Below the pieces are notes generated by a model, which saw only the letters and a list, made by a program, of their open reading frames with translations, had not been told where the DNA came from and did not search any database. Positions 570 to 28,319 of a stretch of 33,848 nt of DNA are shown here, piece after piece. The DNA lies in IMG/VR virus record IMGVR_UViG_3300049070_000231, positions 1-33,848 of that record, one strand, 5' to 3'. A program made the translations under genes and the position numbers. Each line of letters opens with the position of its first letter. Positions within the stretch are counted from its first letter, which is position 1. This DNA is from a virus (lineage: Duplodnaviria > Caudoviricetes).

Positions 570-1409
570 TCAGCCTCGCTTACCGCCTGCTGCCCTTCGA
601 AGGTTGAGGTGCGGCTTCTCGGATTCCGTCGGCCCGTAGCGCACTTCGCCAACAGCTGCAGCGGCGCGCCGGCACTCCGTGACCATCTGCGCGAACTCGG
701 TCGGCTCCATGCTGAAGGCCGCGTCCGGCCCGCCATCCGCCCGGGATAGCGTCAGGTGCTTCTCGATCACGTCCGCGCCCAAGGCGGCGGCTGCCACCGC
801 CACCCCGATGCCGAGCGAGTGGTCCGAGATGCCGACCTTCGGCGCATGCGCCCGCAGATCCTGCATGGTCCTGAGATGGGCGTCGCGCGCGTCAGCCGGG
901 TAGGCGCTGGTGCACTTGAGCAGGGTGAGATCAGGGCAGCCCCCGTCGAACGCTGCAGCAGCGGCCCTGAACACCTCGCTCTCGGACGCCATCCCCGTGG
1001 AAAGGATGAGCGGCTTGCCGGTGCGCGCGGCGTACGCGACCAGGTCGGTGTCCGTGAGTTCGAAGCTGGCGATCTTGTACATCGGGCAGCCCAGCTTCTC
1101 TAGGAAGTCCACGTCGTCGGGGTGGAACGGGGCCGAGAAGGCGGTCAACCGCAACCACTTGGCGAGATCGAACAGCGGCGCGTGCCAGGAGCGCGGCGTG
1201 TGAGCTTCACGGTAAAGGTCCAGAGCCTTGCGACCCGCCCAAGGGCCTGCTTCGATGACCTTTTCAGGGTCGACCATCTGCTCGGGCGTGAAGGTCTGCA
1301 GCTTCACCGCATCCGCGCCGGCCGCTGCTGCGGCCTTGACGATGTCCACCGCCCGGTCGAACGAACCGAGGTGGTTCGCCGACACCTCCGCGACGATGAA
1401 TGGCTTCAC
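570..1409 (-). CDS. pseI: Pseudaminic/sialic acid synthase (PseI/NeuB family), lacking the C-terminal SAF/antifreeze-like domain
   Basis: Motifs AEVSANH, ADAVKLQTF, KIASFE, ILSTGM, LLKCTSAYPA, GISDHS, IEKHLTLSRADGGPD. 279 aa. Confidence 0.9.
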   Translation of the reverse strand: MKPFIVAEVSANHLGSFDRAVDIVKAAAAAGADAVKLQTFTPEQMVDPEKVIEAGPWAGRKALDLYREAHTPRSWHAPLFDLAKWLRLTAFSAPFHPDDVDFLEKLGCPMYKIASFELTDTDLVAYAARTGKPLILSTGMASESEVFRAAAAAFDGGCPDLTLLKCTSAYPADARDAHLRTMQDLRAHAPKVGISDHSLGIGVAVAAAALGADVIEKHLTLSRADGGPDAAFSMEPTEFAQMVTECRRAAAAVGEVRYGPTESEKPHLNLRRAAGGKRG

Positions 1410-1927
1410 TTCGCCCTTGCGAGCGCCTGCAGCGCGGCAGCGGCTTCCCGGATCGTGGCTTCCGAGTATTCCCGGCGCCCGAGGTCGCTCAAGAGAGAAA
1501 CCGCGACCGCTCCAGCCGTGTCGCGATACCTGCGCACCCGATTGGCCTCGTCGCGCAGCTTCGCGTCCTCCTCATTGTTCTCGATCGGCTTGATCGCGTC
1601 CCTGGAGCCCTTCTTCACCAGCGCCACCACCACGTAGGGCCTGGGCGGCTCGCCGGCGAACGCGGGCACCGCCCTGCGCCCGGCCATTGCTGGCTGCGCG
1701 GCGCGCGCCGGCAGGCCCTGAGGTCGCGCTATGTGCACCTCCGGGGTGGCTTCCATGTACTCGCAGGACGCGCGGAAGCCCGCGATGTCTTTCTCGGTGA
1801 TTTGCTCCACCATGTCGGGGTTCGCGTGCCGACGCTTCCACAGCAGCAGCTGCACAACCAGCGCAGGGTCGGCTACCGCCTCCTCAGCGAACTGGTCGAG
1901 CGCGTCCTTCGGTTTCCTCTTCGCCAT
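1406..1927 (-). CDS. Hypothetical protein
   Basis: 173 aa with a purine-rich RBS (GGAGGAGAGG) before ATG 1927. Stop overlaps the pseI start (GTGA). Confidence 0.7.
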   Translation of the reverse strand: MAKRKPKDALDQFAEEAVADPALVVQLLLWKRRHANPDMVEQITEKDIAGFRASCEYMEATPEVHIARPQGLPARAAQPAMAGRRAVPAFAGEPPRPYVVVALVKKGSRDAIKPIENNEEDAKLRDEANRVRRYRDTAGAVAVSLLSDLGRREYSEATIREAAAALQALARAK

Positions 1928-2381
1928 CCTCTCCTCCTGGTAGTTCGTAGGTCAGTTGAATGAGCCGCCCGCTCAGCTTCCCGCCGAACAGGTGCTTGGA
2001 ATGCTCGTTGCTGGGCGCGACGTTGGCGATCCACTTGCCGCGGCGCTCGCTCGGGATTGCAGGCAGTGGTTCGTGCTTCTCCATCAGCGCGCGCACGGCC
2101 TGCTCGCCGTAGCCCTTTCCGCGGTGCTTCTTCAGTAGGAATATGCCGATCTCGTTGTGGGTGGTGGCGTTGACGTAGCCCACCAGCGCGCCCTCGACCT
2201 CGATCAGGTACCAGCAGCGGTACGGGCGGCGATGCACGAACTGGCGATGCTGTTCCGGCGTCGGCATCGTGAACGAGATGTTCATCTCCGGGTCTGCCGC
2301 ACGCTCCGCCATTACCTCGTAGAGGAAGTCGATGGCGCCCGGCAAGATGCCGGTGCCTTGGTAGACGTCGACCAGTTTCAT
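1884..2381 (-). CDS. GNAT N-acetyltransferase (PseH-like)
   Basis: Acetyl-CoA motif A (EIGIFLLKKHRGKGYG) and ANVAPSNEHS. Lies in the sugar cluster with ATGA coupling to the upstream gene. Confidence 0.8.
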   Translation of the reverse strand: MKLVDVYQGTGILPGAIDFLYEVMAERAADPEMNISFTMPTPEQHRQFVHRRPYRCWYLIEVEGALVGYVNATTHNEIGIFLLKKHRGKGYGEQAVRALMEKHEPLPAIPSERRGKWIANVAPSNEHSKHLFGGKLSGRLIQLTYELPGGEDGEEETEGRARPVR

Positions 2382-3130
2382 ACGCGGGCCTTTATTCCGT
2401 TCGCCTGCAGGAACCTCGATGCTTCCTTCGGCGTGGCATCGGTGAACTGGAACAGCGCCCCGGCCGCCACGGCGTTCGCGCCGGCCTTGATCGCTTCAAC
2501 CATGTCCGGGTACCCAGAACAGCCGCCGTGGGCGACCACGGGAACACGCACCGCGGCGCGCACGCTGCGGATCAGGTCGAGGTCGTATCCCTGCATCGTC
2601 CCCTCGCGGTCAACCGCAGTAAGCAGGATCTCGCCGGCGCCCTGCTCGGCTATCCAATTCGCCCTTTCCGGCGCCACTTCGCGCATGCACCGAACGCCCG
2701 GCCTGTCGTCGTCGACGTCGTCGCGCGCTTCGACCACATCGCAGGTAACGACTATGGCTTGACTTCCCACCGTATCGGCCGACCGGCGCACGAGGTCGCC
2801 GCCGATCCACGCCGCCGTACCTATCACCACTTTGTCGGCGCCGGCGCGAAGCAACGCCTTGACATCCGCCAGAGTTCGCACGCCTCCGCCGACAGCGATC
2901 GGCACAAACAGTACCTCGGATAGCTCGGCGATGAGAGAAAGGTCCGGCCCCCTGCCCTCTGGCGTCGCGCCGACATCCAGCAGCACTACCTCGTCGACTC
3001 CTCGCGTGGCGTGGATGCGCACCGCCTGCGCAGCGATCCCGACAGAGCGCCACGAATTGAAGCGCTTGCCCTTCACGAGCGCGCGCCCGCGGCAGAGGAT
3101 GGTGGGGATCACGCGCTTGGCGAGGCCCAT
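2378..3130 (-). CDS. HisF-like cyclase of the glycan amidation type (WbuZ/HisF2)
   Basis: KRVIPTIL, LVKGKRF, GVDEVVLLD, PIAVGGGVR, GADKVVIG, GAGEILLTAVDREGTMQGYD. Start placed at ATG 3130 (TGATG overlap). Confidence 0.88.
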   Translation of the reverse strand: MGLAKRVIPTILCRGRALVKGKRFNSWRSVGIAAQAVRIHATRGVDEVVLLDVGATPEGRGPDLSLIAELSEVLFVPIAVGGGVRTLADVKALLRAGADKVVIGTAAWIGGDLVRRSADTVGSQAIVVTCDVVEARDDVDDDRPGVRCMREVAPERANWIAEQGAGEILLTAVDREGTMQGYDLDLIRSVRAAVRVPVVAHGGCSGYPDMVEAIKAGANAVAAGALFQFTDATPKEASRFLQANGIKARV

Positions 3131-3294
3131 CAGCCCGGCACCTCGTAGCGCACCGCACCGCCCTCGGCCACGTAGCGCACGGTCATGCAGGTCCCGCAGC
3201 GCGAAACCTGCTCGCCGTTGTCCTCCTTGCCGAGGTCGGCGAAGCCGTGCTCGTAGCCTGGCCGGCACGGTGGTTCATCAAGCTGCGGCTTCAT
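3130..3294 (-). CDS. Small hypothetical protein (54 aa, CxxC)
   Basis: MKPQLDEPPCRPGYEHG...RCGTC...YEVPG fills the gap between two genes and is coupled to the HisF-like start. Below the ORF-track cutoff. Confidence 0.55.
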   Translation of the reverse strand: MKPQLDEPPCRPGYEHGFADLGKEDNGEQVSRCGTCMTVRYVAEGGAVRYEVPG

Positions 3295-4378
3295 GCGTCG
3301 CTCCTTTCAGCTTCAGCGTCTTGTCGCCGGGCTTGGCGTCGAAGAGATTCCAGTTCGTGTGCTTGTCCAGCGCTTCCCAGAAGGCCGTCGCGGTCATGCC
3401 GATGCGCTCGAGCACCTCGTGCAGCTCCACGCCGGCGTACCAGTACGGGAAGCGCCCGTCCCTGGCCTTGACCAAGGCCAGCGCCCCTTCGCGCGTCATG
3501 AGCCCCGCTCGGACGTCTACCGAAAGCTGCGCAGCGAAGCGCCCGAACCCATACTTCCGGTACATGCCGTGGTCATGAATCCCCGTCTGCCCGTTGTCGA
3601 GGTTCTCGTGCGACCACCAGTTCGTAATGCTCGGAGTGACTTGGCGCATACCTGCTGCCTTGGCGATCTCCGCGTTGCGGTGCGAGTCCCACGGCAGGTA
3701 CTGGCCGAGGAAGTGCGCCTCGAAGTGCTGGTCGATGTCGGCCGGCAGAACGTAGTCGACCAGGTCGCGCGAGCCGAGGCCCTCGACGCCGATGAGGTCC
3801 TGCGGGCGCAAGCCAAGGAAGCCGCCGAACTCCGAGCGCCAGCGCCGGTTCATGGTCTTCGCTTCCTGGCTGTCGAGCGGCCCGCCGTACTGGTTCTGCG
3901 GGTTCTCGCCGTAGAAGATGAGCGGCCGGCGCAGGTCGCGCGCCGCGACCATGGGCGTCGTGAAAATGCTGACGTGCTCGGGCCAGCTGATGTCGCCCAC
4001 CATGGTGAGGCCGATGCGGTTCAGCTTGGCCCGCACGGTGGCGTTCGGGCTCACCTCCACGGTCTTCGCGTAGCGCTTCAGGTTGTCGATGTTCAGCCTG
4101 CCCACCGGCGTCAGGTGGCAGGTCGTCGCCGTGACCACCGTAACGTCCGCGCCGCGCTTCAGGAGTTCCAGCACTTGGTAGTGGCTGTCCTTGCCGCCGC
4201 TGGAGGGCACGATGCACTCGCCGTTGAAGCGGTTGAGCAGTTCAACCAGCGCGCGCTCGCGCGCCTGCCAGTCGATCTGCGGGCGCTGCTCGTAGGCGAT
4301 GCAGGCGGAGCAGATGCCGTTCACGAACGCCGTGTCGGGACGCGTGTCTGGAATGACGCAGCGGAGGCAGCGGATCAC
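3278..4378 (-). CDS. N-acetyl sugar amidotransferase (WbuX/PseA-like PP-loop)
   Basis: N-terminal CxxC...PDTRP...GICSAC and IDW, PP-loop SGGKDS, GENPQNQYGG, YRKYGFGR. GTG 4378 overlaps the HNH stop. Confidence 0.9.
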   Translation of the reverse strand: MIRCLRCVIPDTRPDTAFVNGICSACIAYEQRPQIDWQARERALVELLNRFNGECIVPSSGGKDSHYQVLELLKRGADVTVVTATTCHLTPVGRLNIDNLKRYAKTVEVSPNATVRAKLNRIGLTMVGDISWPEHVSIFTTPMVAARDLRRPLIFYGENPQNQYGGPLDSQEAKTMNRRWRSEFGGFLGLRPQDLIGVEGLGSRDLVDYVLPADIDQHFEAHFLGQYLPWDSHRNAEIAKAAGMRQVTPSITNWWSHENLDNGQTGIHDHGMYRKYGFGRFAAQLSVDVRAGLMTREGALALVKARDGRFPYWYAGVELHEVLERIGMTATAFWEALDKHTNWNLFDAKPGDKTLKLKGATHEAAA

Positions 4379-4716
4379 GACAGAGCCCTCCGGAACGTTC
4401 TCATGCGATGGCAATTCGCGCAGACCACTTCGCATTTGGCGACCTCCGCCAGGAGCCGCTCTACGCTGGTAGACGACACGCGCCGACTGATGGTGAATTC
4501 CTTGTCGCGATTGATGTGGTCGAATTCCATAACTGGCGGCGGATACTTGACGCCACAGTCCTTGCAGGGGACGTCCTTGATCTTGTTGAGCACTTCTATT
4601 TTTCTGCGGCGCGTGTTTTGAGCGGCCAGTTTTTTCCGCTCGGGAAACTTGGTCCGCCAGCGCAGGTCGGCTGCACGCCCAGCGGCCAATCTTTGCTCTC
4701 GGTCTTTGTAAGGCAT
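4375..4716 (-). CDS. HNH endonuclease
   Basis: CKDCG...MEFDH...KCEVVCANCHRMRT with a basic N-terminus. Start ATG 4716 (TGATG overlap). Confidence 0.85.
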   Translation of the reverse strand: MPYKDREQRLAAGRAADLRWRTKFPERKKLAAQNTRRRKIEVLNKIKDVPCKDCGVKYPPPVMEFDHINRDKEFTISRRVSSTSVERLLAEVAKCEVVCANCHRMRTFRRALS

Positions 4717-5294
4717 CAGCGTTTGACCAGAAGCCATGCGCGACATTGGTCGAACCCTTGCGCCACCGTGTCCGCGACCATGGTCAGCCCCATCGCCTCA
4801 TAGAGGTCGCCGAACGGCCGCTTCCACAGCCGCTCGGCGTTCCCTCGGTACAGCACTTCCTCCTCCTTCGGAGCCGCATACTCGACCGCCAGCACCCAGC
4901 GGCGGCTCGCGTTGATGATGGCCTGCATGGTGTCGGGCAATTCGGCGGGCGCGACGTGGATCAGCACGCCGGAGGTACACACGAGGTCGAAGTGCTCGCG
5001 ATACCATCTCCCCGCGACGCGCGCGGACATGAGGGAGGCGTCAAGTCCCCCGTCGCGGGCTTCCACCACCGCATCGGCGTTCACGTCCACGCCAACGGCG
5101 ATAACCGTGCGATCCGCCGCTCGGATGGCGCGCAGGTTCCAGCCCGCGTTGCAGCCCACGTCGAGCACCGAGCGCGCCTGCGTGATGGCCAAGATGTTGC
5201 GCCAGAACGGCACGCGGTCTAGCCAGTTCACGCGGTTGCGCAGCGTGTAGGCGGTCCCGAAGTCCCCGGCCCAGAATTGCTCTTGAGCGTTCAT
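4716..5294 (-). CDS. Pseudaminic acid biosynthesis-associated SAM methyltransferase
   Basis: QEQFWAGDFG..Y..RN N-terminus, SAM motif VLDVGCNAGWNL, FDLVCTSGVLIHV, YRGNAERLWKRPFG. Confidence 0.88.
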   Translation of the reverse strand: MNAQEQFWAGDFGTAYTLRNRVNWLDRVPFWRNILAITQARSVLDVGCNAGWNLRAIRAADRTVIAVGVDVNADAVVEARDGGLDASLMSARVAGRWYREHFDLVCTSGVLIHVAPAELPDTMQAIINASRRWVLAVEYAAPKEEEVLYRGNAERLWKRPFGDLYEAMGLTMVADTVAQGFDQCRAWLLVKR

Positions 5295-5373
5295 GCGGAG
5301 GGGTCCGGGATGATCAATCTACTGCTGGCGATCTTCGTTGGATTCATGGTCCCTGCAATGGTTGTGGGAGCGT

Positions 5374-6003
5374 TCACCGGGGATCCATCCCTTCAGACGT
5401 TGGCTGGAATCGTCGGGGCGATCTATGCGGTGTGGGTGAATCTGCGGAAGCCTTGAGCGCCGCGTACATCTCCTCGGCGCGCTTCCAGTCTTCCTCGGTG
5501 TTGATGTCGATCCAACGGCCCTCGGGGCGAGTGAGCCCGACGAAGCTGTCGAGCGGCACGTCTTCTAGGAAGTGCGCCGATGGCCCCCAGTACAGCCAGC
5601 CCTCGATGTAGGTGTAGTTGAGACGGCTTTCGCGCAGCCACTCGTACATCTCGGTGATGTCGCTCGCGCGCATCATCGGCGCGGTGGCATAGATGCAGCA
5701 GGCGTAGCCGATATGCTTGGGCTCCGCCAACATGATGTCTCTCAGAACTCTGGCGGCAACTTCCTGCGTACCCACAGCATCGACCGCAAGCTCCTCATCT
5801 CTCTCAATCCACTGCGCGCCGCAGGCTTCGGCAATGCCCCCGATCTCGTGATCCTCGGTCGAAACCACGATCCTCTCGAACAGCCCGCTCGCCTTCGCCG
5901 CCTCGATGCTGTAGGCGATGATCGGCTTGCCGTGGAATGGACGGATGTTCTTCCTCGGGATGCGCCGCGAGCCACCGCGAGCCGGGATGATGGCTACTCG
6001 CAC
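5374..6003 (-). CDS. pseF: CMP-nonulosonate synthetase (PseF/NeuA cytidylyltransferase)
   Basis: AIIPARGGSRRIPRKNI, GKPIIAYSIEAA, IVVSTED, CCIYATAP, DINTEEDW. Start placed at GTG 6003. Confidence 0.88.
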   Translation of the reverse strand: MRVAIIPARGGSRRIPRKNIRPFHGKPIIAYSIEAAKASGLFERIVVSTEDHEIGGIAEACGAQWIERDEELAVDAVGTQEVAARVLRDIMLAEPKHIGYACCIYATAPMMRASDITEMYEWLRESRLNYTYIEGWLYWGPSAHFLEDVPLDSFVGLTRPEGRWIDINTEEDWKRAEEMYAALKASADSPTPHRSPRRFQPTSEGMDPR

Positions 6004-6263
6004 AGCGCCCTCTCCCTCTGCGCCTTCAGGCGCTTGCGCCGATGCCCCGCCACGCTGCCGATGTGGTAGCCGCGGCAGACCGTGCAGTGGTAAACGTTGG
6101 TCACTTTGCGCAGGTCGATGCGGATCGTGCGCTGCGCCGACCCGAACGAGTCGAAGCGATGCTTGCCCTCGCACTCGGAAACCCTTCGCCTCTCCTCCAT
6201 GCGCCTCGCCACCGCGTCCTCTTGCACGAGCGTTCGTAGCTCGAAGAATTCCTCGCGCCTCAC
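5994..6263 (-). CDS. Phage hypothetical protein with a Zn-binding motif
   Basis: CEGKHRF...YHCTVCRGYH. GTG 6263 overlaps the upstream stop. Confidence 0.65.
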   Translation of the reverse strand: MRREEFFELRTLVQEDAVARRMEERRRVSECEGKHRFDSFGSAQRTIRIDLRKVTNVYHCTVCRGYHIGSVAGHRRKRLKAQRERALCE

Positions 6264-6610
6264 ACTTGCCTCCCCTGCGCCATCGCCAGCACCACGTCCA
6301 CGATCTCCAGCGCCGCCTTTTTCGGCGTCCACTTCTTCTGGTACAGGTTGTTCATCACGATGGCCGCGCGAGCGACCATCGCATCGCGCAGGTTGTCGGT
6401 GACGCGGGCGCGCACTTGCTCGGCGATGTAGCTGCCGTCTTTGATCGGCTCGCCGGGAAACTTGGCGTTGTGCGCCGCGCGCGCCATGCCCTCGGCGATG
6501 GGGAAGGCGTCGCCAGGCTCCATGACGAGGTTCTGCGTCGGCTTGGAGAATTGCAGGATCACCTTCCCGTCGCGGGACTCCACGACGATCTTCGTCTTTG
6601 GCTCGCTCAT
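6260..6610 (-). CDS. Hypothetical protein
   Basis: 116 aa, coupled by 4-nt overlaps at both ends. Confidence 0.7.
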   Translation of the reverse strand: MSEPKTKIVVESRDGKVILQFSKPTQNLVMEPGDAFPIAEGMARAAHNAKFPGEPIKDGSYIAEQVRARVTDNLRDAMVARAAIVMNNLYQKKWTPKKAALEIVDVVLAMAQGRQV

Positions 6611-7269
6611 TGGAATATCGCCATTTGAGATAGGTCCGGGTAATCATCCGAAGGCAGCGGGTCGTTGTGCTTCGGCAGCGCCGCCATCGCCCACAGCAGG
6701 CGCGTCGATACGTCCGGCGAGAGGTAGCAGTGCCATCCGATCTGGGTGAAGTTGTCCATATTTGGCGGCACGCCCTCGGTACGACCGTCGAAGCGCGCGC
6801 GCCGCAGCCATTGGTCGGCCTCGTAGTTGTCGTGCAGGATCGCCCCGCCCTGCGTGTCGGCAAGCGTCTTCGTGGCGTGGAAGGACACGCAGACCATCGC
6901 GTTGCTATCCACGGTCCAAAACTGGTCGGAGTCATACATTCCGCTTGTGAGCCATCGCGCGGAGTCGAAGACCGGCAATGGCTTCAACTGGTACGCGCCG
7001 CGCCACGCCTCGTCGCGGAACGTCGGCCGCCCGCCCGCGTGGATGATCGACATCGGCACGCTGACGTAGGTGCGTTTGGGGATTTCAATGGGCGTGCGTC
7101 GGAACTCGACCCACTCGCGCCCGTCCTCGATCGTCACTTGATTACGTAGATGCCACGCCACCGCGAGCAGCAGCGCCATCGTGCAGCTGTTCACCGCCAC
7201 GGCGTACCGCGCGCCGGTGTACTGGCACAGCGCGCGCTCGAAGTCCTTGGTCACTTGGTGCGGGTTCAT
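6607..7269 (-). CDS. Short DegT/DnrJ/EryC1/StrS PLP aminotransferase (PseC-like)
   Basis: FERALCQYTGARYAVAVNSCTMAL, DSA, PLP-lysine motif SFHATKTL..QGGAI. ATG 7269 (ATGA overlap). 220 aa. Confidence 0.85.
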   Translation of the reverse strand: MNPHQVTKDFERALCQYTGARYAVAVNSCTMALLLAVAWHLRNQVTIEDGREWVEFRRTPIEIPKRTYVSVPMSIIHAGGRPTFRDEAWRGAYQLKPLPVFDSARWLTSGMYDSDQFWTVDSNAMVCVSFHATKTLADTQGGAILHDNYEADQWLRRARFDGRTEGVPPNMDNFTQIGWHCYLSPDVSTRLLWAMAALPKHNDPLPSDDYPDLSQMAIFQ

Positions 7270-7490
7270 AGCCACCACGGCCTTTTCATCTCGAAGAATG
7301 TGTGCGCTAGGACCGCGTTGTGCTTGAACCACCCGGCACCGAGCAGCCGCTCCCTGATGCGCATGTCCTCCATCGCAGCTTGGTACGGAGCGGGCGCTTC
7401 CTGATGAATCTCCGGCAGGTCGACGAACGAGAAGCGCGGCGCGACGCCGAGAAACGAGGGCTGGCCACTGTCGTGCGAGATCGCGCTCAC
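7266..7490 (-). CDS. Hypothetical protein
   Basis: 74 aa, coupled by 4-nt overlaps to pseB and the aminotransferase. Confidence 0.55.
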   Translation of the reverse strand: MSAISHDSGQPSFLGVAPRFSFVDLPEIHQEAPAPYQAAMEDMRIRERLLGAGWFKHNAVLAHTFFEMKRPWWL

Positions 7491-8323
7491 GCCACCGCCT
7501 TCAGCCGCTCGCGCAGCTCGGACAAGTCTAGGCGCCGCGCCGTCTCGCTGGAGTTCCCGGCCTTCATCGACTCGTGCGGCTTCTCCCAGTCCTGCAGCCC
7601 GATGTGCCGCAGCTTCTCCGCGCCCATCGCTTCCGCAAGGTCGCCAAGCCTGAACGCTGGCAATTCAGGAATGGCGAGTTCTCCGCCCTGCATCGACATC
7701 AGCGTGTCGACCACCAGCTTTGCCGCCTCCTCCTTCGTCATCCAGAATCTCGTGCAGTCTGGGTCCGTGATCGGCACCGGCACGTCCTTGGCGATGAGCT
7801 CGCGCCAGGTCGGGATCACCGACCCGGTCGACCCTGCCACGTTCCCGTAGCGCACCACCGAGAAATGCGGCCCTTGAGGATCATTCGCGGCGAGGAACAG
7901 GCTTTCCGCCATCGCCTTCGACTGCCCGTACGGCGACACCGGCTCGAACGCCTTGTCGCTCGACACGAGCACCAGCCGCCTTACGCCGGTCCTACGCGCG
8001 GCCTCGATCACGTTCATCGATCCGAGCACGTTCGTCTTGATCATCTCGTCCGGGCAATAAGCCCCGACCTCGATGCGCTTCAGCGCTGCCGCGTGGATCA
8101 CGCAGTCCACGCTCTTCATCGCCCTCTCCAGGCGCTCAACGTCGCGCACGTCGCCGATGAACCAGCGCAGCCGCGGGTCGTCGTTCAGGGCCGAGCGCAT
8201 CCGCGCCTGCGGGTACTCGCCGCGGGAAAAGATGCAGATGCGCTGGTGGCCATCCTTGAACAGGCGCTGCACCAACGCCTGGCCGAGAAACCCAGACCCG
8301 CCGGTGATCAGGATCCCGCTCAT
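7487..8323 (-). CDS. pseB: UDP-GlcNAc 4,6-dehydratase (PseB/FlaA1 family)
   Basis: ITGGSGFLG, IFSRGE, FIGDVRD, IHAAALK, KTNVLG, SSDKA, YGQSK, VRYGNVAGSTGSVIP, TRFWM. Confidence 0.9.
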   Translation of the reverse strand: MSGILITGGSGFLGQALVQRLFKDGHQRICIFSRGEYPQARMRSALNDDPRLRWFIGDVRDVERLERAMKSVDCVIHAAALKRIEVGAYCPDEMIKTNVLGSMNVIEAARRTGVRRLVLVSSDKAFEPVSPYGQSKAMAESLFLAANDPQGPHFSVVRYGNVAGSTGSVIPTWRELIAKDVPVPITDPDCTRFWMTKEEAAKLVVDTLMSMQGGELAIPELPAFRLGDLAEAMGAEKLRHIGLQDWEKPHESMKAGNSSETARRLDLSELRERLKAVA

Positions 8324-8622
8324 GTCGACACACAAGTGGCCGACAGCCCGTATTCGTAGCGGTATGGCGGCCCCGTGCGCTCGAGATTCCCGGCCGATGA
8401 CATCTCAGTCAGGCGCCGGCGCAGCGTAGAGCCAGGAACGTGAGGCAGCGCGCGGTAGAACTGCCTGCACGTCAGCCGGCTCGCGCTTTCCCTGAGCACC
8501 GACACAATCTCCGCCCCCGCCTTGCGTAGCTTGTTCCGCTGCTGACTGCTGAGTGGTTTCCCGGTGGTGACGGGCAGCAGCCACGTAGAGCCGATTGTTT
8601 TTTTCATTGTTGGGTCCTTCAT
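8320..8622 (-). CDS. Putative winged-helix DNA-binding protein
   Basis: IVSVLRE..RLTCRQF...GSTLRRRLTEM..AGNLER pattern. ATG 8622, coupled at both ends. Confidence 0.55.
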   Translation of the reverse strand: MKDPTMKKTIGSTWLLPVTTGKPLSSQQRNKLRKAGAEIVSVLRESASRLTCRQFYRALPHVPGSTLRRRLTEMSSAGNLERTGPPYRYEYGLSATCVST

Positions 8623-17830: not shown

Positions 17831-18802
17831 ATGGAAGTCGTTTCAAAGCCGCGCGTGGCCTACGCGCAATTCATCGCTTCAAAGCAACCGGGGACGGTGG
17901 CGTGGTTGATCGAGCGCTACATCAAGGAAATGAACGGGCTGGATGGCCGGCCCGCGGTCAAGACGCTCGGGGCCTCGCACGAGTACACGCTGCGCATCCT
18001 GCAGCGCTCGCCGATCGGCGCGAAGCTGGCGCTGGATCTGAAGAAGACGGACGTGATCGAGCACTGCCGGTTGCGGCGGATGGAAGTCTGCGCGGCGACG
18101 GTCATGCAGGACATCACCTTCCTCACCGGGGCGCTCAAGTACGCCGGGGCAGCCTGGGACGACTGCGAAAAGATCTCGGATACCGCCGTCAAGAATGCGA
18201 AGCCGTTCCTCATCAAGCACCAGCTCATCGGGAAGAGCGCGCCCCGGCGGCGCAGGGTGGCGAACGAGGAACTGGAGCGGCTCATCGCGCACTTCGAGGA
18301 GCGCAACCGCAACCCACGCACGAAGGTGGACATGGTGCGGGTGACGCTCTGGCAGTTCTACTCCTCGCGCCGGATCGGGGAAACCTGCCGCCTCTTGTGG
18401 TCGGACTGGAACCGAGAGGACCAAACGATCCTCGTGCGCAAGATGAAAGACCCGCGCAACCGCTCGAAGGACAAGCTGGTGGCGCTCACGACTCAAGCGC
18501 AGGCGATGCTGGAGGCGCTGTGGGAGATCCGCGACGAATCGGAGCCGCGCATCTTCCCCTACGTGCGGCAGACGTGCATTTCCAACTACGTCGAGGCCAA
18601 GCACCAGCTCGGCATCAAGAACCTGCATCTGCACGATTCGCGCGCCGAAAGAGCTACGCGCCTGGTCGAGGACGAGAAGCGCACGCCGGCCGAAGCGATC
18701 CTCGTGACCGGGCACGACACGACGGCGGTTTTCGAGCGCACGTACATGCGCCTCGATGCGCGCAAGTTCAAACGCGACGAGCTAGCCGCAACTCCAGCAT
18801 AG
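17831..18802 (+). CDS. Second tyrosine recombinase, not att-adjacent
   Basis: Catalytic set RRIGE (R), RKMKDP (K), LHLHDSR (HxxR), TGH (H), ERTY (Y). AAGGAG RBS. Confidence 0.88.
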   Translation: MEVVSKPRVAYAQFIASKQPGTVAWLIERYIKEMNGLDGRPAVKTLGASHEYTLRILQRSPIGAKLALDLKKTDVIEHCRLRRMEVCAATVMQDITFLTGALKYAGAAWDDCEKISDTAVKNAKPFLIKHQLIGKSAPRRRRVANEELERLIAHFEERNRNPRTKVDMVRVTLWQFYSSRRIGETCRLLWSDWNREDQTILVRKMKDPRNRSKDKLVALTTQAQAMLEALWEIRDESEPRIFPYVRQTCISNYVEAKHQLGIKNLHLHDSRAERATRLVEDEKRTPAEAILVTGHDTTAVFERTYMRLDARKFKRDELAATPA

Positions 18803-22806: not shown

Positions 22807-23017
22807 AAGACTGAAGAAATTCGTGCAGCGCAAGTACCCCTACGCCGGCGCGCAGTTGTCAGCGATGCACGGCTGGCAGATTGTGGACTACGGCGAGGAC
22901 GGGTACGGAACAACGGTTATCGGGCGCAGCGGCAAGAACGAACTGATGGCGTGGTCGAATGCCGCCGCCCGTATTCGCCGTCGAGTCGCTTCCCCACATG
23001 GAAAGCCCTCGCGGTGA
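22799..23017 (+). CDS. Hypothetical protein
   Basis: 72 aa. Stop overlaps the start of the next gene. Confidence 0.5.
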   Translation: MAERLKKFVQRKYPYAGAQLSAMHGWQIVDYGEDGYGTTVIGRSGKNELMAWSNAAARIRRRVASPHGKPSR

Positions 23018-23880
23018 ACCCGTACCGCATCGAAGGCCCTGCAGAGATCGGCTTCAGCGGCGGGCGCAGCTCGGCCTACATGCTCCGGCACATCTTGGAC
23101 GCCCACGGCGGCGAGTTGCCTTCCGACGTGCATGTCGGCTTCCAGAACACCGGCAAAGAGCGCCCCGAGACCTTGGACTTTATCCACCAGTGCTCGACGC
23201 GCTGGAGCGTGCCGGTGACGTGGCTGGAATACCACCGCACCTGGGGTCAGCCGGAGGATCAGCCAGCTTATCGGGTGGTCTCGTATGAGACCGCGAGCCG
23301 GAACGGTGAGCCGTTCAGGATGATGTTGGACTACTACCGACAGTACAGGGAAGAGGTCAAGGACGCGCCCCCGATCCTTCCTAATCCAGTGAATCGCATG
23401 TGCACCTCTTACCTAAAAATCCGGGTAGCGAAGCAGTGGATGCAGAGCTTCGGATACGAAGCCTGGGATGCGGTGATCGGCATTCGAGCCGACGAGCCGA
23501 AGCGCTACACCCGCATGTCTGCCGCCAATGGACGGGAGCGATGGGAGAACGTTATGCCGATGTACGAGGCCGGCGTATCCAAGGAGGACGTAAACGCCTT
23601 CTGGTCCGCGCAGGACTTCGACCTCGGCATCGACTCTGACCTCGGCAACTGTGACCTGTGCTTCTTGAAGCACGAGAACAAGATTTACCGGGCGCTGCAA
23701 GTGAACCCGGAGCTGGGCGACTGGTGGATCGAGCAGGAGGAGCGCACTGGACAGCGCTTCCGAAAGGACCGCCCTGGTTACAAGGAAATGAAGTGGGTGG
23801 CCGTGCAGATGAACAAGCAAATCCCGATGTTCGGCACGGTCGAGGAGGAATCCTTGGCCGACTGCATCTGCGGCGAATGA
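23014..23880 (+). CDS. PAPS-reductase-family (PP-loop) phage protein
   Basis: FSGGRSSAYM, FQNTGKE.PETLDF, RMCTSYLK, IGIRADE..R, GNCDLCFLK, C-terminal CIC. GTG 23014. Confidence 0.88.
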   Translation: MNPYRIEGPAEIGFSGGRSSAYMLRHILDAHGGELPSDVHVGFQNTGKERPETLDFIHQCSTRWSVPVTWLEYHRTWGQPEDQPAYRVVSYETASRNGEPFRMMLDYYRQYREEVKDAPPILPNPVNRMCTSYLKIRVAKQWMQSFGYEAWDAVIGIRADEPKRYTRMSAANGRERWENVMPMYEAGVSKEDVNAFWSAQDFDLGIDSDLGNCDLCFLKHENKIYRALQVNPELGDWWIEQEERTGQRFRKDRPGYKEMKWVAVQMNKQIPMFGTVEEESLADCICGE

Positions 23881-23908
23881 CCATATCCCCTATGAACAGC
23901 GGCGGGAC

Positions 23909-24496
23909 ATGAATCTTTGCGGCGAAAGCATCAGGGTGGTGCATCCGTTGTTCCCAACGGAAGGGGGCGGTTCGATCCCGACCTCGCCGCTCCAACTCTT
24001 CATGGGCTGGATCGACATGGACGTGGCCGTGCCGCTCAACGAGCTTTGGCACTCCCGCCTGCCGCTCTTCACCAGCCCGCCCGAGAAGTGCAAGGCCATC
24101 GCCGCCGAGCACGCGGGCATCTTCTACGCTGCCGCGATCTGGTCGCCGCCGGTAGCCCGCAAGCTGAACTGGACAGGCCGCTACGAGCTGCGCCGCTTCG
24201 CCATTGCTCCCGACGCGCCGAGACATACCGCGAGCCGAATGCTGCGCGTGATGCGCCTGCTGATCGAGCAGGACATGCCCGACGTGGCGATCCTGATGTC
24301 CTACCAAGACGCCGACTCTCACCTCGGGACTATTTACCGGGCCGCAGGATGGGTCAAGGTGGTCGAGAGCAAGGTGCCCGTGGAAGGCTGGTCAACGCGC
24401 GCTGGCCGAGCGAAAGCGCAGACCAACGCCAACAAGGTGCGTTGGGAGTACGTCATACGCAGACCTCAGAACGATATTAGACAGGAGAAGTCATGA
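23909..24496 (+). CDS. Mom-like (GNAT-fold) DNA adenine modification protein
   Basis: WHS.LP, AIWSPPVAR, YELRRFAI..DAPR..ASRML, LMSYQD..H.GTIYRAAGW, KVRWE. Confidence 0.72.
   Translation: MNLCGESIRVVHPLFPTEGGGSIPTSPLQLFMGWIDMDVAVPLNELWHSRLPLFTSPPEKCKAIAAEHAGIFYAAAIWSPPVARKLNWTGRYELRRFAIAPDAPRHTASRMLRVMRLLIEQDMPDVAILMSYQDADSHLGTIYRAAGWVKVVESKVPVEGWSTRAGRAKAQTNANKVRWEYVIRRPQNDIRQEKS
23919..23994 (+). tRNA. tRNA-Gly-like cloverleaf with encoded CCA, embedded in the 5' end of the Mom-like ORF (non-canonical)
   Basis: Perfect acceptor GCGGCGA/TCGCCGC + T + CCA, D arm GCATC/GGTGC, anticodon arm TCCGT-TGTTCCCA-ACGGA, T loop GGTTCGATCC. Confidence 0.75.
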
Positions 24497-27001: not shown

Positions 27002-27277
27002 ATGAGCTCGCACCTCTCCGACGACGAGATCGCCAGCATCACGAAGCCGCTCACGCAGGGCGCGGCGAGGATCAAGTATTTCCGTCGGCTCGGCGTGCGC
27101 GCCGAGGCCCGGCCCAACGGGCAGCCGCTGGTGCTGCGCATCGACTTCGAGCGCCGGCGCCAGGAAGCAGCGAACGACAGCCGCAAGGCGGCGCCGGATT
27201 GGACCGAGTTCGAGAAAAGGGTACGCTATGGCCGGGATGGGGAGAAAGCGGAAGGACGGAAACCCGCTCGGGCTTGA
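27002..27277 (+). CDS. xis: Putative excisionase (DUF4224-like)
   Basis: LSDDEIASIT..L.Q.AA...YFRRLG......PNGQPLV..., PDW. Overlaps the int start. Confidence 0.75.
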   Translation: MSSHLSDDEIASITKPLTQGAARIKYFRRLGVRAEARPNGQPLVLRIDFERRRQEAANDSRKAAPDWTEFEKRVRYGRDGEKAEGRKPARA

Positions 27278-28319
27278 GCCGCGGGTGGAGTTTCACCACG
27301 GGCAGTTCCGGTATCTGCACCGGGACGGCCGCAAGGAATCGCTCGGCAAGGACATCGGCAAAGCCAATGCTAGAGCGCGCGTCTACAACGACCCGGACGG
27401 CAACTTCGGCACGAACAGCCACTTCCTGCGCCTCTTCCTGGCGGATGCGCGCGCCGGGCGACTGCCCGCCGGCCGCAAGCTGAGCGAGCGCACGATCGCC
27501 GACTACGAGGCCGAGGCGAACATCTTCGCCCTCTCGCCGCTCGGCAAGATGACGCCCGCCGACTTGGTGCGGGATCCGAGCCTGATCAGCGACTACCGGG
27601 ACCGGCGCATCACGGAGTCCGGCAAGGGCAAGGTGCAGGCGAACCACGCCCTCGCCATGCTCTCCTCGATGTTCTCCTGGCTGATCGAGCGTGGCCACAG
27701 CCCGGGCCTAGCGGTCAACCCGGTGAAGCTGATCCGGCGCTTCGCCCGCAAGCCGAAGGACCGCTACGTCGAGGACAGCGAGTACCGGCCGGTCTACGGC
27801 GTCGCGCCGCGGAGCGTTTGCATGGCCCTGCGGCTCGCCTACAAGACGCTGCAGCGCCCGGCGGACCTCCTGCGCCTAACGCCCTCCCCCGTGCGCCTGA
27901 AGGCCGTGGCGGGCACTGAGAAGCGCGTCCTGACCTTCCAGCAGGGCAAGCGCGGGCGCATCGTGGACATCGAGGTGGACGCCGAACTCGACGAGATCCT
28001 CGGCATGCTGCGCAACTCCGACGAACGCGTGGTGCGGCTGCCGCAGGCGCTGATCCACGGCCGCGGCGGCAAGGGCTACACCGAGGACGGGCTGGGGTCG
28101 ATGCTGCGGCGCTACTGCACGGCGGCCGGCGTAAAGACCTTCGGGCTGATGGATGTGCGCGCGAAGGGCGCCACCGACATGTACCTCGCTGGCGTACCGC
28201 TCGAGAAGATCCAGCTCCTGATGGCGCACAAGTCGGTGCAGACCACCGAGATTTACATCAAGCGGCTGCTCGCCACCATCTCCACGGTCGCGCCTAACGC
28301 CGTCGCAGTGGGGAATTGA
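27228..28319 (+). CDS. int: Phage integrase (tyrosine recombinase)
   Basis: N-terminal MGRKRK arm domain, QRPADLL (R), QQGKRG (K), MDVRAKGATD, AHKSVQTTEIY (H, Y). Adjacent to attP. Confidence 0.92.
   Translation: MAGMGRKRKDGNPLGLEPRVEFHHGQFRYLHRDGRKESLGKDIGKANARARVYNDPDGNFGTNSHFLRLFLADARAGRLPAGRKLSERTIADYEAEANIFALSPLGKMTPADLVRDPSLISDYRDRRITESGKGKVQANHALAMLSSMFSWLIERGHSPGLAVNPVKLIRRFARKPKDRYVEDSEYRPVYGVAPRSVCMALRLAYKTLQRPADLLRLTPSPVRLKAVAGTEKRVLTFQQGKRGRIVDIEVDAELDEILGMLRNSDERVVRLPQALIHGRGGKGYTEDGLGSMLRRYCTAAGVKTFGLMDVRAKGATDMYLAGVPLEKIQLLMAHKSVQTTEIYIKRLLATISTVAPNAVAVGN

What the first reader, a model, noticed from the sequence alone, without database searches (positions are those of the whole stretch)
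23919..23994. A tRNA-Gly mimic with CCA is written inside the 5' end of a Mom-like DNA-modification gene
Seen: a 76-nt cloverleaf with a perfect 7-bp acceptor, G1-C72, C2-G71, G3-C70, discriminator U73, encoded CCA (23992-23994), a TTCCC-containing anticodon loop and a canonical TTCGA T loop. It is read in frame as CGESIRVVHPLFPTEGGGSIPTSPLQ. Departures from a decoding tRNA are A at position 8, an 8-nt or further-zipped anticodon loop, and a 6-bp T stem with a G.A mismatch. Established: these acceptor pairs, U73 and C35/C36 are bacterial GlyRS identity elements. The Mom adduct is formally glycine-derived, and Fem ligases use dedicated tRNA-Gly species that evade EF-Tu. I recall reports that Mu Mom uses Gly-tRNA(Gly) as donor, which should be verified. 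Inference: the gene either supplies its own non-ribosomal glycyl carrier RNA, or carries a substrate mimic through which the enzyme or GlyRS autoregulates its mRNA. Excising the RNA would also destroy the message. This is the best candidate for an undescribed system here.
Basis: partly seen in the sequence, partly recalled or inferred. Interest (0 to 1): 0.92.

Follow-up and report, generated by a model that had tools for sequence, protein, structure and literature searches.

The report
Mom enzyme's private glycine-carrier tRNA
The first 29 codons of this phage's Mom DNA-disguising gene also spell a conserved, deformed glycine tRNA; the same RNA sits at the start, at the end, or just outside hundreds of other Mom genes, so it is likely the enzyme's own glycine carrier rather than an on/off switch, which nobody has yet tested.

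Summary
The cloverleaf at 23919-23994 is real and selected as RNA. In 127 in-register homologues all four stems covary (15 of 21 pairs change on both sides; 0/500 shuffles), including pairs between synonymous codon positions. GlyRS identity bases are near-invariant. It is also translated as Mom's disordered N-terminus. One correction: the T stem is 5 bp with a bulged A at the EF-Tu contact site, not 6 bp with a G.A mismatch.

RNA-first scans gave 164 distinct copies: 77 in frame at Mom's 5' end, 49 in frame at its 3' end, 13 beside Mom or straddling its end, and 25 without a Mom profile hit (16 show Mom-like C-terminal motifs). Two cultured phages carry non-coding copies after the Mom stop, one a tandem pair with a shrunken D arm. 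Position independence favours a trans-acting, non-ribosomal Gly carrier for Mom, which uses Gly-tRNA(Gly), over autoregulation. Processing, charging and use are untested. Mu and 14 of 15 sampled cultured-phage Moms lack it.

The embedded pseudo-tRNA was noted without function in Dehalococcoides (2011), and this scan found the 5' form before on other DNA.

The parts
23919..23994 (+). 76-nt tRNA-Gly-like cloverleaf (7-nt D loop, 8-nt anticodon loop, bulged T stem, U73, CCA)
   Evidence: covariance model R1 scores 87.9 bits, but the window was in its training set
23909..24496 (+). Mom-family GNAT gene, 195 aa; residues 4-29 are encoded by the cloverleaf
   Evidence: Pfam PF25680 E 2.6e-10; phrog_1384; profile hit to Mu Mom 8bv8; Foldseek top hit 8bv8, E 1.2e-8, TM 0.62
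23909..23911 (+). Likely start codon, 3 codons before the codon holding G1
   Evidence: A start codon lies within 8 codons upstream in 114/127 homologues, mode 3 codons
23952..23954 (+). Anticodon-like TCC carrying identity bases C35 and C36
   Evidence: C35 and C36 in 127/127; TCC in 126/127
23966..23983 (+). T arm: 5-bp stem, 7-nt loop, bulged A at 23981 between canonical pairs 51-63 and 50-64
   Evidence: EF-Tu reads the first three T-stem pairs (PMC7826273 passage)
23991..23994 (+). Discriminator U73 and encoded CCA
   Evidence: U73 121/127, A73 6/127; CCA 108/127
23995..24493 (+). GNAT core: R96, S109, D134 and Y143 align with Mu R111, S124, D149 and Y159; no Arg at Mu R151
23877..23912 (+). 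11-codon mini-ORF overlapping both the upstream stop and the mom ATG (possible translational coupling; untested)
   Evidence: sequence
22951..23880 (+). Upstream PAPS-reductase-like gene; a neighbour, not a conserved part of the system
   Evidence: PF01507 and phrog_424; no relative in 192 Mom loci

Best explanation
The mom gene encodes both a Mom-family enzyme and, in the same letters, a conserved tRNA-Gly-like RNA that is likely cut out of a share of the transcripts, glycylated by host GlyRS and used as the enzyme's private glycine donor for DNA adenine modification. Shown here: the fold, Gly identity bases, T-stem bulge, dual coding, tight linkage to Mom and position independence. Known: Mu Mom transfers glycine from Gly-tRNA(Gly) to N6 of adenine in dsDNA. 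Inferred: (1) RNase P cuts at G1 and a 3' cut or trimming frees CCA (the 19/127 copies without encoded CCA would need CCA addition); (2) GlyRS charges it through G1-C72, C2-G71, U73, C35 and C36; (3) the bulge among pairs 49-65, 50-64 and 51-63 keeps it off EF-Tu, so it neither decodes nor competes with translation, and the 8-nt loop cannot cause frameshifts; (4) in 5'-embedded copies like this one a transcript is either translated or processed, which may also limit the enzyme level.
For: Covariation in all stems. On a tree built from the Mom core only, positions 5 and 68 need 42 and 40 changes singly but 43 jointly, and the ten best joint-saving pairs of 1225 are all stem pairs. Pair 5-68 joins two third codon positions: it pairs in 67/71 Gly/Pro and 46/46 Ala/Ala cases. 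Tertiary-contact signals appear (canonical 54-58 rank 13, 10-45 rank 16; G55 goes with A18 in 20/21). The consensus Gly identity set is G1-C72, C35, C36 and the 10-25:45 triple (PMC9976931 passage). In the second RNA-first set, where the anticodon was not in the pattern, 101/108 keep CC in the anticodon loop and 32 have A before it. Of 164 distinct copies, 139 lie at a Mom profile hit: 77 in frame at the 5' end, 49 in frame at the 3' end, 4 upstream out of frame, 4 free downstream, 5 straddling the stop or in another frame. 16 of the other 25 have Mom-like C-terminal motifs upstream. Psychrobacter phage vB_PmaS_Y8A has two tandem 68-69-nt CCA-ending copies without a canonical D arm just after the Mom stop; Salinibacter phage B2_17 has one free copy after Mom. 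Staphylococcal non-proteinogenic tRNA-Gly provides a precedent, including TGC T loops, which occur in 59/108 of the second set, whose pattern allowed TTC or TGC.
Against: No experiment or read data show the RNA as a free, charged species. Mu Mom works with all three E. coli tRNA-Gly isoacceptors, and 14 of 15 cultured-phage Mom loci examined, Mu included, lack the element, so it is dispensable in many lineages. Among 102 cluster representatives with room for it, only 65 keep the peptide signature. 19/127 lack encoded CCA, and the host-CCA test was inconclusive. An irregular U73 tRNA was not charged by E. coli GlyRS in another study (PMC5389517 passage), so identity bases do not guarantee charging. 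This short Mom clade lacks Mu R151 and the HTH-like insertion, both needed in Mu; its activity is unproven. The tree-aware sign tests were underpowered (50-62: 6 of 6, p 0.03; 5-68: p 0.125). The tertiary pair 17-54 ranks only 78 of 1225.
Confidence: 0.7

Rival explanations
1. The cloverleaf works only in cis as an uncharged substrate mimic: Mom, GlyRS or RNase P binds or cuts it in the mRNA to repress or time expression of a potentially toxic enzyme, as the thrS operator does for ThrRS (recalled).
For: In the 5' clades G1 lies 1-5 codons after the start in 110/127, where structure could block initiation. 19/127 lack CCA. Mu lacks the element and instead has Com, annotated as translational regulator of Mom.
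Against: 49 copies are the last codons of Mom, and others lie wholly outside the ORF, including a tandem pair after the stop. An initiation attenuator would not work there. U73, CCA and C35/C36 are kept in most copies. Regulation may still be a second role of the 5' copies.
Confidence: 0.14
2. The RNA is released but acts as a decoy or reserve against host tRNA-targeting defences (anticodon nucleases, Gly-tRNA acetylating toxins), or tops up translation, rather than being Mom's preferred donor.
For: Free copies exist. TacT recognises U73 and G71 of Gly-tRNA(Gly) (PMC9976931 passage). 18/127 have a canonical 7-nt anticodon loop, and ARAGORN names 8 of 60 loci tRNA-Gly.
Against: Linkage to Mom is near-exclusive: only 4 of 164 copies lack any Mom sign despite at least 550 nt of flank on both sides. 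The bulge, 8-nt loops, loss of the D arm and a variable base before CC argue against decoding.
Confidence: 0.09
3. It is a relic of a captured tRNA-Gly gene or an integration scar, now kept only because the encoded peptide matters.
For: The peptide is under some protein-level selection: Leu in 124/127 by all six codons and never TTY, and no in-frame stops where about 19 are expected. PLF- or SP-like remnants persist in proteins that lost the signature. Four distinct close homologues have a decayed fold.
Against: Compensatory changes at synonymous positions; TTC in 126/126 Phe codons against 179/501 in the core; non-coding copies keep the same fold; residues 1-22 are predicted disordered. A bulge absent from ordinary tRNAs is not expected in an attachment site.
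Confidence: 0.03

Closest known systems
76-bp tRNA-Gly-like 'pseudo-tRNA' in the mom homologue of Dehalococcoides ssrA genomic islands (McMurdie et al. 2011, PMC3146451; passages and the supplement 1 legend seen, the figure itself not readable)
   Same: 76 bp, inside the first 150 bp of mom, anticodon DCC. My model finds 76-77-nt copies with the same bulged A at 7 of 20 PF25680 loci in Chloroflexota genomes, very likely the same family.
   Different: No function was assigned, Mom was thought to methylate, and it was seen in 16 modules and one fosmid. The bulge, dual coding, 3' and free forms, and the link to Mom's Gly-tRNA donor do not appear in the passages I saw.
Phage Mu Mom (PF25680, PDB 8bv8; Silva et al. 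2026, PMC13219725)
   Same: GNAT fold; R111, S124, D149 and Y159 equivalents are kept; Gly-tRNA(Gly) is the donor in Mu.
   Different: Mu uses host tRNA-Gly and has no such RNA. The window protein has 16% identity in the structural alignment, no R151 and no HTH-like insertion. 'tRNA-like' and 'mimic' do not occur in the main text.
Staphylococcal non-proteinogenic tRNA-Gly for Fem ligases (PMC7826273; introduction and passages)
   Same: UCC tRNA-Gly tuned away from EF-Tu at T-stem pairs 49-65, 50-64 and 51-63, with TGC/TGT T loops, serving a GNAT-fold transferase.
   Different: Those are free chromosomal genes using weak pairs, not a bulge. They are not overprinted on the enzyme's reading frame and they feed cell-wall synthesis.
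selC* tRNA-Cys and 8/4 tRNA-Sec with a T-stem bulge A51a (PMC5389517, PMC7609411; passages)
   Same: A bulged A in the T stem.
   Different: 8/4 architecture, bulge on the 5' strand, Cys/Sec identity, translational role; that bulge was dispensable.
sufD frameshift-suppressor tRNA-Gly (PMC4238358; passage)
   Same: A tRNA-Gly with an extra base in the anticodon loop can function, so an 8-nt loop need not block glycylation.
   Different: sufD is a lab mutant that enters the ribosome.

Membership tests
Mom family (PF25680) | Profile match above the curated cut-off | tested here: met
   40.8 bits against a cut-off of 27.1
Mom family (PF25680) | GNAT fold closest to Mu Mom | tested here: met
   Model pLDDT 86; top Foldseek hits 8bv8_B and 8bv8_A
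Mom family (PF25680) | Catalytic R111, S124, D149, Y159 | tested here: met
   R96, S109, D134, Y143; invariant or at least 90% in 96 homologues
Mom family (PF25680) | R151 and the HTH-like insertion that are essential in Mu | tested here: not met
   D136 aligns with R151; a coil of about 21 residues replaces the insertion
Mom family (PF25680) | Forms 6-NcmdA on dsDNA | not testable with these tools
   Needs LC-MS of DNA
Canonical decoding tRNA-Gly (RF00005) | Score above Rfam or ARAGORN thresholds | tested here: not met
   Window: none. ARAGORN of 60 homologous loci, 8 as Gly and 19 as undetermined
Canonical decoding tRNA-Gly (RF00005) | Unbroken 5-bp T stem and 7-nt anticodon loop | tested here: not met
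   Bulge in 127/127; a 7-nt anticodon loop in only 18/127
GlyRS substrate | G1-C72, C2-G71, U73, C35, C36 | tested here: met
   127, 126, 121, 127 and 127 of 127
GlyRS substrate | Free 3' CCA and actual glycylation | not testable with these tools
   CCA is encoded in 108/127 but is internal to the transcript
Non-proteinogenic tRNA-Gly (Fem type) | Altered T-stem pairs at the EF-Tu site | tested here: inconclusive
   The alteration is at that site but is a bulge, not A49-U65/A51-U63; EF-Tu binding was not measured
Non-proteinogenic tRNA-Gly (Fem type) | Preferred by its partner transferase | not testable with these tools
   Only genetic linkage is shown
Dehalococcoides mom pseudo-tRNA-Gly | 76 bp, first 150 bp of mom, DCC anticodon | tested here: met
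   Window: 76 nt, 10 nt after the ATG start, TCC. The paper's own sequences could not be read

The most novel reading that the evidence does not exclude
A widespread two-product gene: the Mom transcript is both the message for a DNA-modifying enzyme and the precursor of that enzyme's dedicated aminoacyl carrier, a bulged, EF-Tu-evading tRNA-Gly that has moved between the 5' end, the 3' end and outside the ORF, and has shrunk to 68-71-nt forms without a canonical D arm.
Probability: 0.6. Interest if true: 0.9.

Novelty: new variant of a known kind. Interest (0 to 1): 0.8.

Why it matters
[quoted passage not shown] It would extend dedicated non-ribosomal tRNAs from cell-wall synthesis to DNA modification, and give a case of a tRNA overprinted on the gene of the enzyme that consumes it. 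It gives a testable function to a pseudo-tRNA left unexplained since 2011. Two cultured phages (Psychrobacter Y8A, Salinibacter B2_17) carry free copies, so direct tests are possible. In practice gene callers truncate these ORFs or miss the RNA: the database entry for this window's protein starts at M32.

Tried and rejected
Single-protein locus search in viral contigs: nothing. No RNA holder was listed for the window; this says nothing about expression, and no reads could be laid. Host-CCA test, inconclusive: elements without CCA lie in MAGs with 18/54, 2/45, 21/28, 3/31 and 1/79 CCA-pattern matches per tRNA match; elements with CCA in MAGs with 2/40, 5/79, 28/41, 54/57 and 2/45 (binning is uncertain). 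The trailer after CCA is more AU-rich than the core in 113/127, but amino-acid constraint could cause this, so I did not count it. No promoter or terminator was found near the gene on its strand. The first RNA pattern was off by one base and was redone. A separate tRNA upstream of a gene starting at ATG 24002 is rejected for this clade: only 30/127 have a downstream ATG, while SD-like motifs precede 41/113 upstream starts against 40/491 internal ATGs. The PAPS-reductase neighbour is not conserved (0 of 192 loci). BLAST of element DNA against annotated phages and plasmids gave only weak hits apart from the two phages named. Biases: protein-first loci were partly found with patterns from the element's own peptide; RNA-first patterns forced CCA, the bulge spacing and part of the T stem, and both scans stopped at 120 rows; acceptor starts were chosen by best pairing. 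One negative (L101/L195, 19 bits) rests on unpublished genome G002. One supplement of PMC13219725 and the figure in supplement 1 of PMC3146451 could not be read, and bioRxiv supplements were closed; they may bear on priority.

Full report
Observation. The 76 bases at 23919-23994 form the cloverleaf described and are read as residues 4-29 of a 195-aa ORF, 23909-24496. The window is a whole 33,848-base virus record. The ORF is a Mom-family GNAT: PF25680 above cut-off, phrog_1384, Mu Mom as the only solved-structure sequence hit and the top Foldseek hit. Alone, the RNA is unremarkable to standard tools: z = -1.8, no ARAGORN call, no Rfam tRNA over threshold.

Conservation. I fetched 192 loci with a protein alignment. 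180 had a strong Mom core, 174 could be anchored and 136 were distinct. Of these, 126 plus the window are in 76-nt register, five are 79 nt with the frame kept, one is 77 nt with a broken frame and four are decayed. Of the six unanchored loci, three still hit the model and three do not. In the 127, 94.1% of cells pair and 15 of 21 pairs change on both sides; 0 of 500 shuffles reach this, and slid controls give 39-50%. The eight strongest mutual-information pairs are all stem pairs, followed by the canonical tertiary contacts 10-45 and 18-55. On a tree from the Mom core only, 5 and 68 need 42 and 40 changes singly but 43 jointly; 49-64 needs 15, 15 and 15. The ten best joint-saving pairs among 1225 are stem pairs; 54-58 ranks 13, 10-45 ranks 16 and 18-55 only 78. 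Sign tests on well-supported branches were underpowered. Pair 5-68 links two third codon positions and pairs in 67/71 Gly/Pro and 46/46 Ala/Ala cases, so selection acts on the RNA. Phe is TTC in 126/126 here against 179/501 in the core.

Anatomy. G1-C72 (127), C2-G71 (126), C35 and C36 (127) and U73 (121; A73 in 6) match the glycine identity set (PMC9976931 passage). CCA is encoded in 108. The T stem is 5 bp with a bulged purine (A 125, G 2) between canonical pairs 51-63 and 50-64, not 6 bp with a mismatch. These pairs set EF-Tu affinity (PMC7826273 passage). 109 copies, including the window, have a 7-nt D loop, nearly all with an 8-nt anticodon loop (105 clear, 4 ambiguous); 18 have an 8-nt D loop and a canonical 7-nt anticodon loop.

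It is also translated. A start codon lies within 8 codons upstream in 114/127, and only 30 have a downstream ATG. SD-like motifs precede 41/113 such starts against 40/491 internal ATGs. The coding frame has no stop in 127 sequences (about 19 expected; the search favours open frames), whereas the other frames have stops in 116 and 102. One codon is Leu in 124/127 by all six codons and never TTY. Residues 1-22 are predicted disordered.

The RNA moves. 77 are in frame at Mom's 5' end, 49 are in frame as its last codons (47 of these stop within 13 codons of the CCA), 4 are upstream out of frame, 4 are free downstream, 5 straddle the stop or lie in another frame, and 25 have no Mom profile hit. Of the 25, 16 have Mom-like C-terminal motifs upstream in short flanks and only 4 have long flanks without Mom. 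Pfam confirms Mom for the 8 such ORFs tested. All keep five T-stem pairs around the bulge, two of which the second pattern left free. In the second set, 101/108 keep CC in the anticodon loop without being selected for it. Lengths run from 68 to 79 nt, with shrunken D arms in the short forms. Psychrobacter phage vB_PmaS_Y8A has two unannotated tandem copies (68 and 69 nt, 4 nt apart, each ending in CCA) 7 nt after the Mom stop. Salinibacter phage B2_17 has one, annotated tRNA-Gly and lacking CCA, just after a Mom gene. On a 127-protein FastTree, 5' against 3' placement changes 3 times and coding against non-coding 3' placement 8 times (deep branches are weak). The element also occurs at 7 of 20 PF25680 loci from 401 Chloroflexota genomes.

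It is optional. 14 of 15 cultured-phage Mom loci, Mu included, lack it. With a query lacking the N-terminus, 65 of 102 cluster representatives with room keep the peptide signature. Mu Mom accepts all three host isoacceptors.

Mechanism. Mu Mom transfers glycine from Gly-tRNA(Gly) to adenine N6 (PMC13219725). An RNA with complete Gly identity, a lesion at the EF-Tu site, tolerance of non-decoding anticodon loops and D-arm loss, near-exclusive linkage to Mom and indifference to position is best read as a dedicated carrier acting in trans (0.70). Release by RNase P and 3' processing, charging, EF-Tu evasion and use by Mom are all inferred. A purely cis regulator (0.14) fits the 5' copies but not the 3' or free ones, though regulation may be a second role, since excision destroys the message. 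A decoy or translation role (0.09) does not explain the linkage. A relic (0.03) is contradicted by synonymous covariation. Caveats: this short clade lacks Mu R151 and the HTH-like insertion; identity bases did not ensure charging for another irregular tRNA; the host-CCA test was inconclusive.

Prior knowledge. McMurdie et al. 2011 noted a 76-bp tRNA-Gly-like pseudo-tRNA in the first 150 bp of mom in 16 Dehalococcoides modules and one fosmid, without function (passages). I reached that paper through earlier notes of this scan, which had found the 5' form on other genomes. Six searches of the held library aimed at Mom with tRNA, or at tRNAs embedded in genes, and term look-ups in the two Mom papers found no text linking the element to Mom's donor or describing 3' or free forms. 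The library lacks most subscription journals. Staphylococcal non-proteinogenic tRNA-Gly is the functional precedent. The thrS operator analogy and the sliding-clamp motif label are recalled, not from a call.

Verdict. Real, strongly conserved and mechanistically suggestive. It is a new variant of the dedicated non-ribosomal tRNA idea, with an overprinted layout that was seen once before but not explained. Interest 0.8.

Noticed in passing
window 570-8335 (- strand): A pseudaminic-acid-type sugar pathway on a virus record: PseI above the NCBIfam cut-off, plus PseB-, PseC-, PseF-, WbuX- and WbuZ-like genes below cut-off, a methyltransferase and a GNAT.
   Followed up: no
window 23877-23912: An 11-codon mini-ORF overlaps the PAPS-reductase-like stop and the mom ATG; in 53/93 homologues a long upstream frame ends near the mom ATG.
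   Followed up: partly
P0165, P0227, P0253, P0264 and others; window 23817-23831: Mom relatives that lost most or all of the tRNA peptide often keep or gain QxxLF-like N-terminal motifs, and the upstream PAPS-reductase-like protein has QIPMF near its end; these resemble a sliding-clamp-binding motif (label recalled).
   Followed up: no
L357:2154-2228 (-), Microbacterium phage Appa: An ordinary, unbulged tRNA-Gly(CCC) lies convergently just after the Mom gene.
   Followed up: partly
L482:870-1492, Salinibacter phage B2_17: The Mom gene appears frameshifted near its 3' end; a YPK-containing tail in another frame stops directly before the RNA.
   Followed up: no
L041, L055, L057, L063, L070, L074: Six copies have discriminator A73, the archaeal/eukaryotic Gly state, all in the 7-nt anticodon-loop class.
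   Followed up: no
L221:789-1400; L482:365-886; L357:969-1502: A ParB-domain gene directly precedes Mom in three unrelated cultured phages; a ParB gene also precedes mom in the Dehalococcoides module.
   Followed up: no
L296, L363, L367, L375: Bulged tRNA-Gly-like copies with no Mom within at least 550 nt on either side; the partner enzyme is unknown.
   Followed up: no
window 17831-18802 and 27228-28319: Two tyrosine-integrase-family genes, plus RecT, helicase and primase genes elsewhere in the window.
   Followed up: no
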